Shown here in pieces: positions 11,595 through 20,983 of a stretch of 64,000 bases of DNA. The position numbers and the translations under genes are program-made. The stretch covers positions 1 to 64,000 of the IMG/VR virus record IMGVR_UViG_3300036398_001591. One strand, written 5' to 3'. The stretch's first letter is position 1. The number at the start of each line of letters is the position of its first letter. Source of the DNA: a virus. The notes beneath the pieces are model-generated. The model ran no database searches. It saw nothing but the letters and a program-made list of their open reading frames with translations, and was not told the origin of the DNA.

Positions 11595-11669
11595 TGGTGC
11601 TCCGACTAGGAATTGAACCTAGACTCAATGAATTATGAGTTCACTGCTTTACCATTAAGCTATCGGAGC
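11595..11669 (-). tRNA. tRNA-Ile2/Met (CAT)
   Basis: Cloverleaf, loop CT-CAT-AA, encoded CCA. Confidence 0.88.
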
Positions 11670-11672
11670 ATT

Positions 11673-11760
11673 TGGTGCGGGAAGAGGGATTCGAACCCTC
11701 ACGCTTTTTAAATTGCGGCGGGTTTTAAGCCCGCTGTGTCTACCATTCCACCATACCCGC
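11673..11760 (-). tRNA. tRNA-Leu (TAA)
   Basis: Loop CT-TAA-AA, long variable arm, CCA. Confidence 0.93.
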
Positions 11761-11761
11761 A

Positions 11762-11860
11762 TGTCCATTTTGAAACACACTATTTGCAAATATCCCCCCG
11801 CCTAGAACAGGTTTTAGGACCCATCCACCATGGTTGGGCAAATGTATTTCAAAATGGACA
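11762..11860 (-). ncRNA. Long-stem hairpin element (copy A of 3)
   Basis: TGTCCATTTTGAAA...TTTCAAAATGGACA 14-bp perfect inverted repeat, extendable with G-U pairs. Confidence 0.55.
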
Positions 11861-11874
11861 CCTTTCGGTGTCCA
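11850..11874 (-). terminator. Terminator-like hairpin after the DUF2828 gene
   Basis: UGGACACC-GAAA-GGUGUCCA followed by UUUU. Confidence 0.55.
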
Positions 11875-11879
11875 CGCCA

Positions 11880-13319
11880 TTACAGCACTTTGTAACGGTC
11901 ATCCATGATGGTTTTAAGCATCACAGTTTCTGGTGTAAAAGTATCTAGGTCACCAGCAAGGAGTGGCTTAACCACGGCTGGAGAGAAACCAGACACCAGT
12001 GCTGTACCAGACTTGTCAAACTTCACTGGCGAGTTGCCATATGAAGCATTCAAGTTCCAGAACACAACCTTTGGCAAGGTGTATCCTGCGGCTTCGTACT
12101 TTCGTGCGATCATTTGGATAGCAGAATCATCGTGGTTCACACATTGATTGAACTGCATATCTGACAGAATCAATACCATTTCTGGCATTTCATTCTGTGG
12201 AACACCGGCACCTACTGCGGTAGCAAGGATTTTTGCAAATGCCTTGCTCAAGTCAGTGCTCATAGCCCAGTTAGACTTGACCATTCGATCAATCTTTTGG
12301 TTGATGTTACCTTTCAGGTGCAACAACTCTGGGTTAGTTGAGAAGGTCAAGAATGTATCCTTGAACTTACCAGTATTCTTGTCTGCAAGATACAATCCCA
12401 AAGAGACTGCAACTTCCATACATGACAACTTGCTGTTTGAACCGTGTCCACCAGCTGGGCATGACATAGAACCAGAAACGTCTACCAGAGGTAGGATGTT
12501 TCCATCGCCAACGTAGTTTGGTAGTGCTTCCCATTGCTTTTGGATCAAGTCCAATTCAGTCTTGTCAAACTTCACTCCGTAGAAGTTGATACGACCCTTC
12601 AACACATCATATGGATACACAGCGCCAGCGTTGACTTTTACTTCAACGGTGCGATCTTTTGGATCCTTCATCAACTCAGCAACATACTTACCATATTCTG
12701 GTGTGTTACGGTTGAAAGCCTTCTTGTAACGGGAAGCCGCTACGGAAGGAACATGTGAGAAGTTAATGGAATCCCAGTCCTTTGCACACATGTTTGTTTC
12801 AACAACTTTGGTCATTTCAACCAAAGACTTACGGTAGAACTTTGGTGACATTCCGAAGAATGTACGGATTTCTGCCGCAAGTGGACCTTGGCGAGGTGTC
12901 CACTTAGCCGCCAAACCATTCTTTTCACGGAGTGCGTTACCAAGAATAGTGTATGCGGCTTCTTTCAGTGCTTTGGTCTTGAAGACAAACAAATCATCCC
13001 AACGACCCAATTCTGGCACTTTAGCCAACAGAGCCTTAGCGGCTTCTGTATCAGTGTTTTCCAGATACACTAGGATATCACGGAACAACTGGCGTTCACC
13101 AGCACCGCCACGTGCGTCACGTAGCCATGCGGCAACTCGTAGAGCCAATTCACGGTTCTCTGCCAAGGCGGCCGCAAATGCAGGCTTAATATCTTTTCCA
13201 CGGGATGCACCCGCATTGTAAAACAAATCAACCACCGCATTGGCGGTTGACTTGCGAGCCTTCATACCGTTTGTGGTACGGGCTTCTTGGTTCTTAACAG
13301 CTTCGACAAATGTTGACAT
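11880..13319 (-). CDS. DUF2828-family helical plus vWA protein (Ro60/TROVE-like architecture)
   Basis: Start MSTFVEAV with AGGAG RBS; RDARGGAGER, GRWDDL, AAKWTPR, MIDAS DVSGSM, SDMQF, FWNL, SGFS motifs. Confidence 0.85.
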   Translation of the reverse strand: MSTFVEAVKNQEARTTNGMKARKSTANAVVDLFYNAGASRGKDIKPAFAAALAENRELALRVAAWLRDARGGAGERQLFRDILVYLENTDTEAAKALLAKVPELGRWDDLFVFKTKALKEAAYTILGNALREKNGLAAKWTPRQGPLAAEIRTFFGMSPKFYRKSLVEMTKVVETNMCAKDWDSINFSHVPSVAASRYKKAFNRNTPEYGKYVAELMKDPKDRTVEVKVNAGAVYPYDVLKGRINFYGVKFDKTELDLIQKQWEALPNYVGDGNILPLVDVSGSMSCPAGGHGSNSKLSCMEVAVSLGLYLADKNTGKFKDTFLTFSTNPELLHLKGNINQKIDRMVKSNWAMSTDLSKAFAKILATAVGAGVPQNEMPEMVLILSDMQFNQCVNHDDSAIQMIARKYEAAGYTLPKVVFWNLNASYGNSPVKFDKSGTALVSGFSPAVVKPLLAGDLDTFTPETVMLKTIMDDRYKVL

Positions 13320-13337
13320 AATGAACTCCTTTTCAAT

Positions 13338-13456
13338 CAACAGGTTAAACTTTTTGCGGACCATTGTGCTACCATTACACTAGACCCCTAAGGGAGCCGG
13401 AATCGAACCGGTCTTTCGGTTTTTCGTTGCATAAATTGTTTTGCGGAACTTAACCT
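13338..13456 (-). ncRNA. Y-RNA-like element 1, circularly permuted tRNA mimic
   Basis: Terminal stem AGGUUAA/UUAACCU, motif GUUCCGCA; T arm CCGG-UUCGAUU-CCGG, closed acceptor-like hairpin, then D arm GUGU-AAUGGUA-GCAC. Confidence 0.75.
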
Positions 13457-13461
13457 AAAAA

Positions 13462-13571
13462 CAACAGAGTAGTTTGATTGCCACCGTGGCACATCATCCG
13501 AGTCTCTTTCGAGTTTTGGTGGATAATGCTGGAATCGAACCAGCTAGTTTTTGTTTTGCTGAACCTACTCT
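13462..13571 (-). ncRNA. Y-RNA-like element 2, circularly permuted tRNA mimic
   Basis: Terminal stem AGAGUAG/CUACUCU, motif GUUCAGCA; T arm GCUGG-UUCGAUU-CCAGC, AUUAUCC-ACCA...GGAUGAU acceptor, D-like hairpin GCCA-CGG-UGGC. Confidence 0.75.
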
Positions 13572-13585
13572 AAAACTTTCAAAAA

Positions 13586-13752
13586 TAACAGGATAGTTTT
13601 CTACTTTTTGATTACAGAGAGAAAATCGAAACTCTCCTTGCTTAGTATGTTTCAGTGTCAAACCTTCAACGCACTCGGTCAAGACTCCGTGCTCCAGTTT
13701 TCTACCACAGTGACTAAACGATCCAGTATTAGTGGGATGCTGTACCTATCCT
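13586..13752 (-). ncRNA. Y-RNA-like element 3 (long insert)
   Basis: Terminal stem AGGAUAG/CUAUCCU, motif GUACAGCA; internal T-loop-like UUCGAUU hairpin. Confidence 0.65.
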
Positions 13753-13779
13753 AAAAACTTATATAATCTCCATATAAAG

Positions 13780-13840
13780 ATTATATCACGTTAAGTGTAA
13801 CTTGGCAAGGCTTTTTTTGCATTGTTGCCTAAAAACAACA
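13780..13840 (-). promoter_or_regulatory. Sigma70-type promoter with upstream TGTTG-N8-CAACA palindrome
   Basis: TTGCCA (13803-13808), 17 bp, TATAAT (13780-13785); palindrome at 13823-13840. Confidence 0.75.
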
Positions 13841-13917
13841 TGGTGCCTCAGGGGGGAGTCGAGCCCCCAAAATCCAGTGTTTGAGACTGGCACGTATACC
13901 AATTCCGTCACCGAGGC
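13841..13917 (-). tRNA. tRNA-Leu (CAA), short variable arm
   Basis: Loop CT-CAA-AC, T loop CTCGACT, CCA. Confidence 0.8.
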
Positions 13918-13924
13918 ATTTATA

Positions 13925-20186: not shown

Positions 20187-20187
20187 A

Positions 20188-20277
20188 TGGTGGAGAGTCT
20201 GGGAGTCGAACCCAGTGACCTTATCTCTAAAGCCTGCGGTTTAGCAAACCGGTGCATTACCATCCTGCCCACTCTCC
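20188..20277 (-). tRNA. tRNA-Ser (GCT)
   Basis: Loop TT-GCT-AA, long variable arm, CCA. Confidence 0.9.
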
Positions 20278-20417
20278 AATTCTTCAATCCTATTTGCCGC
20301 TTCTTCAAGCAAATCGGCAATTCTATCTGGTGCATTTTCTTGCACAGACTTCCTTGTAGGAATTTGCCTACGAATTTCGGCACGTTTTCTCAAACGAAAA
20401 ACTAAATCTTCATTCAT
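20241..20417 (-). CDS. 58-aa hypothetical protein overlapping tRNA-Ser(GCT)
   Basis: AGGAG RBS; MNEDLVFRLRKRAEIRRQIPTRKSVQENAPDRIADLLEEAANRIEELESGQDGNAPVC. Confidence 0.7.
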   Translation of the reverse strand: MNEDLVFRLRKRAEIRRQIPTRKSVQENAPDRIADLLEEAANRIEELESGQDGNAPVC

Positions 20418-20432
20418 AAGAACTCCTAAAAT

Positions 20433-20524
20433 TGGTGGAAACGGTGAGATTCGAACTCACGGACCCATTTCTGAATCGACAGTTTTCAAGACTGTAGCAA
20501 TAAACCGGACTCTGCCACGTTTCC
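20433..20524 (-). tRNA. tRNA-Ser (TGA)
   Basis: Loop CT-TGA-AA, long variable arm, CCA. Confidence 0.93.
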
Positions 20525-20530
20525 AATTAA

Positions 20531-20605
20531 CCATATAAAAACACATTGTTACACCCAATAGGATAATAATCCTCATACGAGAATCACCAATGTGTTTCTA
20601 TATGG
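20531..20605 (-). repeat. Long-stem hairpin element (copy C), overlapping the tRNA-Gln CCA
   Basis: CCATATAAAAACACATTG...CAATGTGTTTCTATATGG inverted repeat. Confidence 0.55.
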
Positions 20606-20676
20606 CACCCGAAATAAGAATCGAACTTATACTAACAGAGTCAAAGTCTGCTGTGCTACCACTACACCATTCGGGA
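20603..20676 (-). tRNA. tRNA-Gln (TTG)
   Basis: Loop CT-TTG-AC, G73, CCA. Confidence 0.9.
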
Positions 20677-20679
20677 TCA

Positions 20680-20704
20680 AATTACACTTAACTTTTTAAA
20701 GAAC
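20680..20704 (-). promoter_or_regulatory. boxA-like 25-bp leader repeat (copy 2)
   Basis: Identical to 19701..19725. Confidence 0.55.
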
Positions 20705-20711
20705 TGTGTGT

Positions 20712-20764
20712 ATTGTACATGATTCTTAATCTTTGTCAATACATGTTGTTGTAAGATTACAACA
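20712..20764 (-). promoter_or_regulatory. Sigma70-type promoter with TGTTGTAA-GA-TTACAACA palindrome
   Basis: TTGACA (20734-20739), 16 bp, TACAAT (20712-20717); palindrome at 20747-20764. Confidence 0.7.
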
Positions 20765-20772
20765 CTTCCAAA

Positions 20773-20805
20773 CAAAAAACCCTCAGAACTTTCGTTGTGA
20801 GGGTT
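20773..20805 (-). terminator. Intrinsic terminator (candidate attenuator)
   Basis: AACCCUCA-C-AAC-GAAA-GUU-C-UGAGGGUU followed by a U tract. Confidence 0.8.
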
Positions 20806-20831
20806 GTGAAACTTTAGTTTACTTTTATGTA

Positions 20832-20948
20832 TTACTTAATTCCACTAACCCTTCCGTGCGCCCATGACTGATTATCGCTACCAATAAACGGTGTGCGATA
20901 CTCGGCTGTCAAGCAAGATTTCGAGGGGGTTGAAGTTATTTTAATCAT
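20832..20948 (-). CDS. Putative leaderless 38-aa attenuator leader peptide containing all 20 amino acids
   Basis: MIKITSTPSKSCLTAEYRTPFIGSDNQSWAHGRVSGIK; ATG 7 nt after the -10 box; 3' end complementary to the terminator 5' arm. Confidence 0.65.
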   Translation of the reverse strand: MIKITSTPSKSCLTAEYRTPFIGSDNQSWAHGRVSGIK

Positions 20949-20954
20949 AGTGTT

Positions 20955-20983
20955 ATTATATAGGCTTTTTTTATTATTGGCAA
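20955..20983 (-). promoter_or_regulatory. Sigma70-type promoter
   Basis: TTGCCA (20978-20983), 17 bp, TATAAT (20955-20960). Confidence 0.78.

What the first reader, a model, noticed from the sequence alone, without database searches (positions are those of the whole stretch)
11595..20983. Integrated hypothesis: a phage tRNA-damage response region
Seen together: a tRNA set for all 20 amino acids with encoded CCA, a candidate all-amino-acid attenuator at its head, a shared operator palindrome, tRNA-mimic RNAs with a Ro-like protein, atypical tRNAs and an RNase H-like YkuK gene. Established: phage tRNAs can offset host anticodon nucleases, and bacterial Rsr/Y RNA operons respond to tRNA damage. 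Inference: a sense, replace and decoy counter-defence system.
Basis: inference. Interest (0 to 1): 0.75.

Follow-up and report, generated by a model that had tools for sequence, protein, structure and literature searches.

The report
Phage tRNA island with decoding sensor
An uncultured large phage carries tRNA genes for all 20 amino acids, headed by a tiny test gene that contains every amino acid and is wired to a transcription stop, plus a Ro60-like protein with its own small RNAs. All parts are real and conserved, but that they work together as an anti-defence alarm remains a guess.

Summary

- **tRNA set:** 26 tRNA genes lie inside the span, plus an odd but conserved tRNA-Tyr. Together they cover all 20 amino acids, and every gene encodes CCA.
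- **Leader ORF (strongest result):** the 38-codon ORF at 20832-20948(-) is translated and conserved. Its last codons pair with the 5' side of the terminator, with compensatory changes across lineages.
  - Among 57 distinct leaders in related phages, 39 hold all 20 amino acids and 15 hold 19. This is far beyond even a uniform-composition null (P about 2e-7).
  - In 17 of 56 relatives no promoter lies between the terminator and the tRNAs, so there the switch is the only gate.
- **Ro-like protein:** the DUF2828 protein has a Ro60 fold. A Y-like RNA family accompanies it in 70 of 80 related loci, and 71 of 80 lie inside tRNA arrays.
- **Palindrome:** it is a conserved inverted repeat.

Not supported: the decoy role and the unity of the parts as one damage-response system. 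The modules have their own promoters, cargo genes vary between relatives, and the closest complete relative has no RNA ligase.

This scan already reported the same all-amino-acid attenuator on related phage DNA. I found no published account.

The parts
20955..20983 (-). Promoter P0 (TTGCCA-17-TATAAT). The ATG of the leader ORF begins 7 nt after the -10, so the mRNA is leaderless or nearly so.
   Evidence: 11 of 12 consensus matches. The promoter is conserved in relatives, where some lineages instead have a GGAG Shine-Dalgarno with a TTG/GTG start in the same frame.
20832..20948 (-). Leader ORF: 38 codons, all 20 amino acids, 32 distinct codons.
20840..20852 (-). Segment 2: the last codons of the ORF, forming the 5' strand of the antiterminator. 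It can also pair with codons 6-8 (segment 1, tentative).
20800..20811 (-). Segment 3: the 3' strand of the antiterminator, overlapping the 5' arm of the terminator.
20774..20803 (-). Intrinsic terminator: 8-bp G+C-rich stem followed by a U tract.
   Evidence: compensatory changes in the stem. The simple scan missed it because the loop exceeds 8 nt.
20745..20765 (-). Inverted repeat 1 (core TGTTGT..ACAACA) just upstream of P1.
20712..20739 (-). Promoter P1 (TTGACA-16-TACAAT) of tRNA operon 1.
   Evidence: A promoter at this position is absent in 17 of 56 related heads.
20679..20704 (-). boxA-like element 1 (rrn antiterminator-like).
   Evidence: identical copy at 19700-19725, only two in the record. 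Conserved in 176 distinct modules in relatives.
19700..19808 (-). Second promoter module: inverted repeat 2 (19787-19808), P2 (19755-19782, 12 of 12 matches), boxA-like element 2 (19700-19725).
11595..20676 (-). tRNA array: 26 ARAGORN tRNAs plus the atypical Tyr, all with encoded CCA, interleaved with protein genes and Y-like RNAs.
19151..19239 (-). Atypical tRNA-Tyr(GUA). It has no normal D arm; a helix joins the D-arm position to the long variable region.
   Evidence: the helix covaries in relatives
18807..18872 (-). 66-nt tRNA-like gene with an acceptor stem and CCA but no D arm.
   Evidence: conserved, with one compensatory pair
20095..20186 (-). 92-nt tRNA-Ile(UAU) with a long extra arm.
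   Evidence: 27 relatives have the same 92-nt form; the extra arm is invariant
18650..18722 (-). Y-like RNA copy 4 (minimal form) inside the tRNA array.
18498..18567 (-). Y-like RNA copy 5 (minimal form) inside the tRNA array.
17458..17943 (-). YkuK-type RNase H-like protein (PF04308).
   Evidence: Present in 26 of 80 related loci.
13780..13808 (-). Promoter (TTGCCA-17-TATAAT) in front of the Y-like RNAs and the Ro-like gene.
13334..13753 (-). Three tandem Y-like RNAs (13581-13753, 13457-13572, 13334-13457). Copies 2 and 3 carry a tRNA T-arm motif, and copy 3 also a D-arm-like hairpin.
11880..13364 (-). Ro60-fold protein (DUF2828 + DUF7788: HEAT-repeat ring plus vWA with a MIDAS motif).

Best explanation
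This is the tRNA supply island of a large lytic phage, and its output is probably feedback-controlled by decoding capacity.

**tRNA operons.** The tRNAs sit in rRNA-operon-like units with near-consensus sigma-70 promoters, each followed by a boxA-like antitermination element.

**Attenuator.** A trp-type leader-peptide attenuator stands at the head of the array. Promoter P0 drives a 38-codon ORF that contains every amino acid, most only once or twice.
- If ribosomes read the ORF to its stop codon, they cover its last codons and the terminator forms.
- If a ribosome stalls earlier for want of any charged tRNA, those codons pair with the 5' side of the terminator, and transcription runs into the tRNA genes.
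- In this phage a second promoter (P1) behind the terminator gives a basal supply, so the attenuator adds an inducible share.

**Ro60-like module.** Embedded in the array is a separate module: a Ro60-fold protein and a family of Y-like RNAs. It most likely forms an RNP that handles structured RNA or recruits a host exonuclease.

**Shown versus inferred.** Shown here: the anatomy, conservation, covariation, amino-acid composition and fold. Inferred: stalling-dependent read-through, the RNP, and any anti-defence role.
For: **Translation of the leader.** Leaderless ATG forms and Shine-Dalgarno-led TTG/GTG forms keep one reading frame, and changes in the conserved core are mostly synonymous.

**Amino-acid make-up.**
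- Of 57 distinct leaders picked by a fixed rule, 39 have 20 kinds and 15 have 19.
- Among 15 clusters at 50% identity, 6 representatives have all 20, against 0.03 expected from proteome composition and 0.33 from uniform composition (P 2e-7).
- 12 of the 15 have at least 19 (P 7e-10).
- Asp, Tyr, Trp, Glu and Gln average 1.0-1.2 copies per leader.

**Codon level.** Both isoacceptor classes are present for Ser in 55/55 leaders, Leu 49/50, Ile 44/46, Arg 28/32 and Gly 39/48. That gives 23.2 tRNA classes against 21.7 after synonymous resampling.

**RNA switch.**
- In 14 of 15 lineages the last 4-7 codons form a duplex of -12.6 to -24 kcal/mol with the terminator's 5' flank and arm.
- RNAalifold recovers the antiterminator when the 3' arm is removed.
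- On full-length RNA it recovers the terminator plus a 1:2 helix.

**Gate.** 17 of 56 heads have only 19-43 nt and no promoter between terminator and boxA. The first tRNA is Gln(UUG) in 51 of 57.

**Ro module.**
- The 12 best fold matches are all Ro60, at E down to 6.6e-9.
- Y-like elements give 132 hits in 70 of 80 loci, 129 on the gene strand, against 3 in shuffles.
- 119 of 123 5' motifs have a complementary 3' arm, against 12 of 123 with scrambled arms.
- 71 of 80 loci lie among same-strand tRNA genes.

**Published parallels.** A Thermus phage Ro60 binds two phage Y-like RNAs and host PNPase (PMC12135203). The Ro60-like gp130 of phage Bas63 sits next to tRNA genes and counters the Ppl defence (bioRxiv 10.1101/2024.10.10.617714).
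Against: - No expression or read-through data exist. One metatranscriptome holds only contigs of relatives and cannot show transcript ends.
- In this window P1, an 11/12 consensus promoter, lies after the terminator, so the attenuator can only add to transcription of the array.
- 'All 20' is not invariant: 19 kinds are common, and single variants have 16-18.
- Val often occurs only in the last codons, where a stalled ribosome would mask the antiterminator.
- Single codons give weak sensitivity in classical attenuators.
- The 1:2 helix has only 6 bp and little covariation.
- The lineages are homologous, so the statistics are not fully independent.
- The Y-like RNAs match no Rfam Y RNA model and lack the CGAA motif of known Y RNAs (PMC12135203).
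Confidence: 0.6

Rival explanations
1. The island is one counter-defence unit against host anticodon nucleases: the leader senses tRNA cleavage, the array replaces the cut tRNAs, the Y-like RNAs and odd tRNAs act as decoys, and a shared operator and YkuK coordinate the response.
For: - The sensor architecture is real.
- A single-copy codon for every amino acid suits detection of total loss of one tRNA species better than detection of graded starvation (inference).
- The Ro-like gene sits in tRNA arrays in 71 of 80 loci.
- A homologous class of Ro60-like phage protein counters a defence system in E. coli (bioRxiv 10.1101/2024.10.10.617714).
- It is published that phage tRNAs can offset tRNA-targeting defences (reviewed in PMC7824862).
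Against: - Nothing bears on decoy action.
- The defence countered by Bas63 gp130 (Ppl) is proposed to degrade DNA, not tRNA.
- The modules have separate promoters.
- YkuK occurs in 26 of 80 loci, the GroES-like gene in 7, and the heptose genes in 1-6, so the set is not inherited as a unit.
- The closest complete relative has no RtcB-, Rnl1- or Rnl2-type ligase, and only 1 of 5 large relatives has one.
- The inverted repeat is conserved in sequence, but no regulator is identified.
Confidence: 0.25
2. An ordinary codon-supplementing tRNA island with unrelated cargo. The small ORF is simply a conserved small protein gene, or the stable end of an sRNA, with its own promoter and terminator. The Ro-like module is an independent moron.
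For: - P1 and P2 can drive the tRNAs without the leader.
- Cargo between the tRNAs varies widely among relatives.
- The core of the peptide is strongly conserved in the window's own lineage, as for a functional peptide.
Against: - A functional small protein would not keep all 20 amino acids while its sequence and residue order change almost completely.
- The ORF end covaries with the terminator flank.
- In 17 of 56 relatives the terminator is followed directly by boxA and tRNA-Gln, with no promoter.
Confidence: 0.1

Closest known systems
Leader-peptide (ribosome-mediated) transcription attenuators of amino-acid operons: trpL, hisL, pheL, leuL, and the multivalent thrL and ilvGMEDA leaders
   Same: A short translated ORF is followed by an intrinsic terminator. 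A mutually exclusive antiterminator has its 5' strand in the last codons, so the ribosome's position decides termination. There may be a four-segment 1:2 / 2:3 / 3:4 layout.
   Different: Known leaders repeat the codons of one to three amino acids and control biosynthetic enzymes. This leader holds every amino acid about once, samples both isoacceptor classes of split families, and controls tRNA genes. In this window a second promoter follows the terminator.
Ro60/Y RNA particles: bacterial Rsr with YrlA (PMC4201824), Thermus phage phiLo Ro60 with Yrl1/Yrl2 and host PNPase (PMC12135203), Bas63 gp130 (bioRxiv 10.1101/2024.10.10.617714)
   Same: The protein has the Ro60 ring-plus-vWA fold. Small RNAs with a 5'-3' terminal stem lie just upstream on the same strand, some with tRNA-like T and D arms. 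The gene lies next to phage tRNA genes, as in Bas63.
   Different: The protein belongs to the Pfam families DUF2828/DUF7788, not TROVE. The RNAs match no Rfam Y RNA model, and their conserved loop motif is GUUCAGCAA rather than CGAA. Extra minimal copies sit between tRNAs 5 kb away. No RtcB or RtcA partner is present.
rrn-type boxA antitermination of ribosomal RNA operons
   Same: A boxA-like word follows each strong promoter of a long untranslated transcription unit.
   Different: It matches the E. coli rrn boxA only approximately (comparison from my own knowledge). Binding of Nus factors is untested.
Inducible long tRNA array of Anabaena PCC 7120 (PMC8421152)
   Same: A supernumerary tRNA array whose expression rises when translation is impaired.
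   Different: That paper reports no leader peptide or attenuator; none of these words occurs in its text. The array is cellular, not phage-borne.

Membership tests
Leader-peptide transcription attenuator | Short ORF with credible translation start signals | tested here: met
   The ATG lies 7 nt after the -10 (leaderless). In other lineages a GGAG is followed by a TTG/GTG start in the same frame.
Leader-peptide transcription attenuator | Intrinsic terminator shortly downstream of the ORF | tested here: met
   Terminator at 20774-20803. The gap between stop codon and terminator is 24-35 nt in nearly all lineages (up to 44), and the stem shows compensatory changes.
Leader-peptide transcription attenuator | Antiterminator that excludes the terminator and is masked by a ribosome at the end of the ORF | tested here: met
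   A duplex forms between the last 4-7 codons and the terminator's 5' flank and arm in 14 of 15 lineages. RNAalifold gives the same consensus.
Leader-peptide transcription attenuator | Regulatory codons enriched for the sensed amino acid | tested here: inconclusive
   There are no codon runs. Instead every amino acid is present, which is highly non-random. This is a different logic from the known members.
Leader-peptide transcription attenuator | The controlled genes lie in the same transcription unit, with no promoter in between | tested here: inconclusive
   Met in 17 of 56 related heads. Not met in this window, where P1 intervenes.
Leader-peptide transcription attenuator | Read-through rises when the cognate charged tRNA is scarce | not testable with these tools
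   This needs reporter or term-seq experiments.
Ro60 / TROVE proteins | HEAT-repeat ring plus vWA domain with a MIDAS motif | tested here: met
   The model has pLDDT 91.9, and its 12 best PDB matches are all Ro60 (TM 0.39-0.63, E down to 6.6e-9). The DxSxS motif is invariant in 80 homologues.
Ro60 / TROVE proteins | Sequence match to the Pfam TROVE domain | tested here: not met
   Pfam gives DUF2828 and DUF7788, and only a weak vWA_Ro60 hit at E 0.13. The profile search against PDB hits Ro60 at E about 0.1.
Y RNA / YrlA | Match to the curated Rfam models | tested here: not met
   No Y RNA family matches at E up to 5 anywhere in 11400-24000.
Y RNA / YrlA | 5'-3' terminal stem, encoded next to the Ro60 gene on the same strand, with a tRNA-like module in at least one copy | tested here: met
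   T-arm motifs are present in copies 2 and 3, and a D-arm-like hairpin in copy 3.
Y RNA / YrlA | Bound by the Ro60 protein | not testable with these tools
   This needs pull-down or gel-shift experiments.
YkuK (PF04308, RNase H-like) | Pfam match above the curated cut-off | tested here: met
   55.9 bits against a cut-off of 25. The function of this family is unknown.

The most novel reading that the evidence does not exclude
The leader is a universal decoding gauge, which would be the first attenuator known to monitor the whole tRNA pool, isoacceptors included. Phages would use it as an alarm: loss of any one tRNA species, for instance to a host anticodon nuclease, stalls the ribosome and switches on a complete replacement tRNA set. 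The co-resident Ro60-like/Y-like RNP would deal with the damaged or surplus RNA.
Probability: 0.3. Interest if true: 0.9.

Novelty: new variant of a known kind. Interest (0 to 1): 0.78.

Why it matters
Why phages carry many tRNA genes, and how they time them, is an open question. A leader peptide that must be spelled with all 20 amino acids points to closed-loop control of tRNA supply by decoding capacity itself. That is a use of attenuation I found no published description of.

It is directly testable with a reporter and single-tRNA depletion. It would also give a compact natural sensor of global translation capacity.

The work places the large phage DUF2828 family (696 phage records) in the Ro60 fold and gives it a candidate RNA partner family, linking Ro60 biology to phage tRNA islands.

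Tried and rejected
- **Single-sequence AlphaFold** of the Ro-like protein failed (pLDDT 41). It was redone with an 80-sequence alignment.
- **Megablast against isolated phages** found no close relative.
- **Rfam** gave only tRNAs at gathering thresholds and nothing for the Y-like region or the leader at E up to 5.
- **GCCTATATA at P0:** I tested whether it is a general phage promoter word. It occurs once in the record, so it is not.
- **Inverted repeat as RNA hairpin versus protein site:** its core is conserved in sequence rather than covarying (105 of 115 modules). The excess of G-T over A-C mismatches (17 against 5) is too weak to decide.
- **One metatranscriptome** (coded X1) holds contigs 85-95% alike. 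They cover the relatives' Ro-like gene, the Y-like region and a stretch from leader to tRNA-Gln. Contigs cannot show transcript ends, and DNA carry-over is possible.
- **RNA ligase families** (RtcB, Rnl1, Rnl2) were not found in the record, which is only 49% complete. The Rnl1 search rang in no control genome, so it is uninformative.
- I stopped that step and rebuilt the peptide set from the stored loci.

Full report
**What is there**

The window is the first 64 kb of an 82.5-kb viral record judged 49% complete. Its G+C content is about 38%. No isolated phage is close at the DNA level.

From 20983 down to 11595, everything relevant lies on the - strand. ARAGORN finds 27 tRNA genes and Rfam confirms 25 at gathering score. 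26 lie in the stated span, and tRNA-Arg(UCU) lies outside at 23773-23847.

Nineteen isotypes are called. The twentieth, Tyr(GUA), is an 89-nt gene at 19151-19239 that the programs miss or score weakly. It has no normal D arm. Instead, a helix joins that position to the long variable region, and this helix covaries in relatives.

A 66-nt tRNA-like gene (18807-18872), a 92-nt tRNA-Ile(UAU) with an invariant extra arm, and short 76-77-nt tRNA-Leu forms are likewise conserved. Every one of these genes encodes CCA.

**Layout, read 5' to 3' on the - strand**

1. Promoter P0.
2. The 38-codon leader ORF.
3. A terminator.
4. Inverted repeat 1, promoter P1 and a boxA-like element.
5. tRNA-Gln, Ser, Ser, Ile and Cys, with two small ORFs among them.
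6. Inverted repeat 2, promoter P2 and an identical boxA-like element.
7. The remaining tRNAs, interleaved with two minimal Y-like RNAs and these genes: a 73-aa ORF, YkuK, a GroES-like gene, a 230-aa ORF of no known family, and four sugar-nucleotide genes.
8. A further promoter, three tandem Y-like RNAs and the Ro-like gene.
9. tRNA-Leu and tRNA-Met.

The 26-nt boxA-like element occurs exactly twice in the record.

**The leader is translated and is built from all 20 amino acids**

The window's peptide has all 20 amino acids in 38 residues. The chance for a random 38-mer of this genome's composition is about 0.2%, and none of 212 other small ORFs in the record reaches 20 kinds.

Relatives were fetched in two ways: through the upstream 242-aa protein and through the boxA-like word. 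They keep the ORF. Some lineages start at an ATG placed 7 nt behind the -10, and others at a TTG or GTG behind a GGAG, always in the same frame. Changes inside the conserved core are mostly synonymous.

A fixed rule was used to collect leaders: an ORF of 28-45 codons ending 15-60 nt before a terminator that precedes the boxA-like word, choosing the start with a leaderless or Shine-Dalgarno signal. It gave 57 distinct leaders:
- 39 have 20 kinds of amino acid.
- 15 have 19 kinds.
- 3 have fewer, and one of these is probably a false pick.

The leaders fall into 15 clusters at 50% identity, with residue order largely scrambled between clusters. Among the cluster representatives, which were chosen by length and not by diversity:
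- 6 have all 20 kinds. The expectation is 0.03 from proteome composition and 0.33 from uniform composition, the most favourable null (P 2e-7).
- 12 have at least 19 kinds (P 7e-10).

The make-up is flattened towards one of each: Asp 1.0, Tyr 1.0, Trp 1.08, Glu and Gln 1.17, and His 1.25 copies per leader.

At the codon level, both isoacceptor classes are sampled when the amino acid recurs: Ser in 55/55 leaders, Leu 49/50, Ile (including AUA) 44/46, Arg 28/32 and Gly 39/48. That gives 23.2 tRNA classes against 21.7 after synonymous resampling.

The lineages are homologous, so these tests are not fully independent. Even so, the property persists through near-complete sequence turnover.

**The RNA switch**

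- In 14 of 15 lineages the last 4-7 codons form a duplex of -12.6 to -24 kcal/mol with the stretch that runs into the terminator's 5' arm, overlapping it by 4-7 nt. The terminator hairpins themselves are weaker, at -7 to -11 kcal/mol.
- The paired words differ between lineages and change together.
- RNAalifold on 12 variants with the terminator's 3' arm removed returns this antiterminator.
- On full-length RNA, RNAalifold returns the terminator, with compensatory changes, plus a 6-bp helix between codons 6-8 and the start of segment 2. This would complete a trp-like 1:2 / 2:3 / 3:4 design. I regard the 1:2 helix as tentative.
- The simple terminator scan missed the terminator because its loop exceeds 8 nt. 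The MFE fold shows it.

**Does the switch gate the tRNAs?**

In this window an 11/12 consensus promoter (P1) lies between the terminator and the boxA-like element. The attenuator can therefore only add read-through from P0 to a basal supply.

In 17 of 56 related heads the terminator is followed within 19-43 nt by the boxA-like word and tRNA-Gln, with no promoter. There the switch is the sole entrance. The first tRNA is Gln(UUG) in 51 of 57 heads.

Weaknesses remain:
- Val often occurs only in the last codons, where a stalled ribosome would mask segment 2.
- Single codons make weak sensors of graded starvation. This design fits all-or-none loss of a tRNA better (inference).

**The Ro-like module**

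The 494-aa protein matches Pfam DUF2828 and DUF7788 and PHROG 850, annotated 'RNA-binding protein'. It has full-length homologues in 696 phage records, including FelixO1-like coliphages and the mycobacteriophage 'Ro-like' proteins.

Sequence searches against solved structures reach Ro60 only at E about 0.1. A model built on 80 diverse homologues (pLDDT 91.9) has Ro60/TROVE structures as its 12 best matches. Among them is the Ro60 of Thermus phage phiLo.

The five Y-like RNAs of the window share three features:
- an 8-bp terminal stem;
- the loop word GUUCAGCAA, or a close variant;
- a 3' tail beginning GUU.

Copies 2 and 3 contain a tRNA T-arm motif, and copy 3 also a D-arm-like hairpin.

A pattern scan of 80 related loci, with 63-96% protein identity, gave these results:
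- 132 such elements in 70 loci, 129 of them on the gene's strand and most within 500 nt upstream of the gene, against 3 in shuffled DNA.
- As a less circular control, 119 of 123 5' motifs have a complementary 3' arm downstream, against 12 of 123 when the arm is scrambled.
- 71 of the 80 loci hold tRNA genes within 10 kb, every one on the same strand, up to 37 per locus.

The cultured cyanophage BUCT-ZZ01 (48% protein identity) shows three such elements by eye upstream of its homologue, with 11 tRNA genes around it.

**Literature**

- Y RNAs next to TROVE-annotated Ro60 genes in bacteria and some phages are known (PMC4201824).
- A phage Ro60 that binds two phage Y-like RNAs and host PNPase has been solved (PMC12135203).
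- Jumbo-phage tRNAs, RNA repair and ROT/TROVE proteins have been discussed together as anti-defence adaptations (PMC7824862).
- A preprint reports that the Ro60-like gp130 of phage Bas63, which lies next to its tRNA genes, counters the Ppl defence (10.1101/2024.10.10.617714).
- For the attenuator I found no published account. The nearest is an Anabaena tRNA array induced by translational stress, and that paper mentions no leader peptide or attenuator.

**Earlier notes of this scan**

Other readers and follow-up agents have already reported leader-peptide attenuators in front of phage tRNA arrays. These include this same all-amino-acid form on related phage DNA. My analysis repeats that result independently on this genome. 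It adds the promoter-less heads, the codon-level test and the link to the Ro-like module.

**Is it one system?**

The evidence is against a single inherited unit:
- The tRNA operons and the Y RNA/Ro-like module each have their own promoter.
- YkuK is found in 26 of 80 loci, the GroES-like gene in 7 and the sugar genes in 1-6.
- The closest complete relative (99% complete, 96% identical Ro-like protein) has no RtcB-, Rnl1- or Rnl2-type ligase. Only one of five large relatives has an Rnl2-type gene.

The analogy with the bacterial rsr-yrlA-rtcBA damage operon therefore does not extend to gene content.

The inverted repeat is conserved (core TGTTGT..ACAACA in 105 of 115 promoter modules), which fits a protein-binding site, but no regulator is known. 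Nothing tested here bears on a decoy role.

**Verdict**

The best reading is a tRNA supply island under feedback control by a decoding gauge, with an embedded Ro60-like RNP. A counter-defence purpose is plausible but unproven.

Noticed in passing
window 13925-16148 (-): Four overlapping sugar-nucleotide genes (NAD-dependent epimerase, cupin, PfkB kinase, cytidylyltransferase-like) sit inside the tRNA array and resemble an ADP-heptose-type pathway. All four occur together in only 1 of 80 related loci.
   Followed up: partly
window 8508-11593 (+): A FecR-domain protein and a CHASE2 plus adenylate/guanylate cyclase protein are encoded on the opposite strand. They end exactly where the tRNA island ends. 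This is unusual cargo for a phage.
   Followed up: partly
window, between tRNAs from 17372 to 19328 (-): Many tRNAs and Y-like RNAs are separated by the same spacer, CCA-GUUUU(A/U)(AG). This could be a shared processing signal, for example for RNase E.
   Followed up: no
window 20531-20605 and 19575-19625 (-): After the first tRNA of each operon (Gln, Glu) lies a long hairpin whose 5' strand starts with that tRNA's CCA.
   Followed up: partly
window 19408-19483 and 13841-13917 (-): tRNA-Leu(UAG) and tRNA-Leu(CAA) are short (76-77 nt) and lack the long variable arm usual for bacterial tRNA-Leu. The short form is the commonest in relatives.
   Followed up: partly
window 20955-20970 (-): The word GCCTATATA at P0 occurs once in the 82.5-kb record. 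It is kept in nearly all related leaders, even where the -35 has shifted by 8 nt.
   Followed up: partly
L254 3666-3741 (Synechococcus phage BUCT-ZZ01): ARAGORN calls a tRNA with anticodon CUA (amber-reading, labelled Pyl) in the tRNA region next to the Ro-like gene.
   Followed up: no
window 16263-16955 (-): A 230-aa ORF between tRNA-Val and tRNA-Phe matches no Pfam or PHROG family.
   Followed up: no
window 21700-25041 (-): Upstream of the island lie a dCMP deaminase, a GDSL-like hydrolase, a rubrerythrin-like protein, the lone tRNA-Arg(UCU) and a metallophosphoesterase.
   Followed up: no
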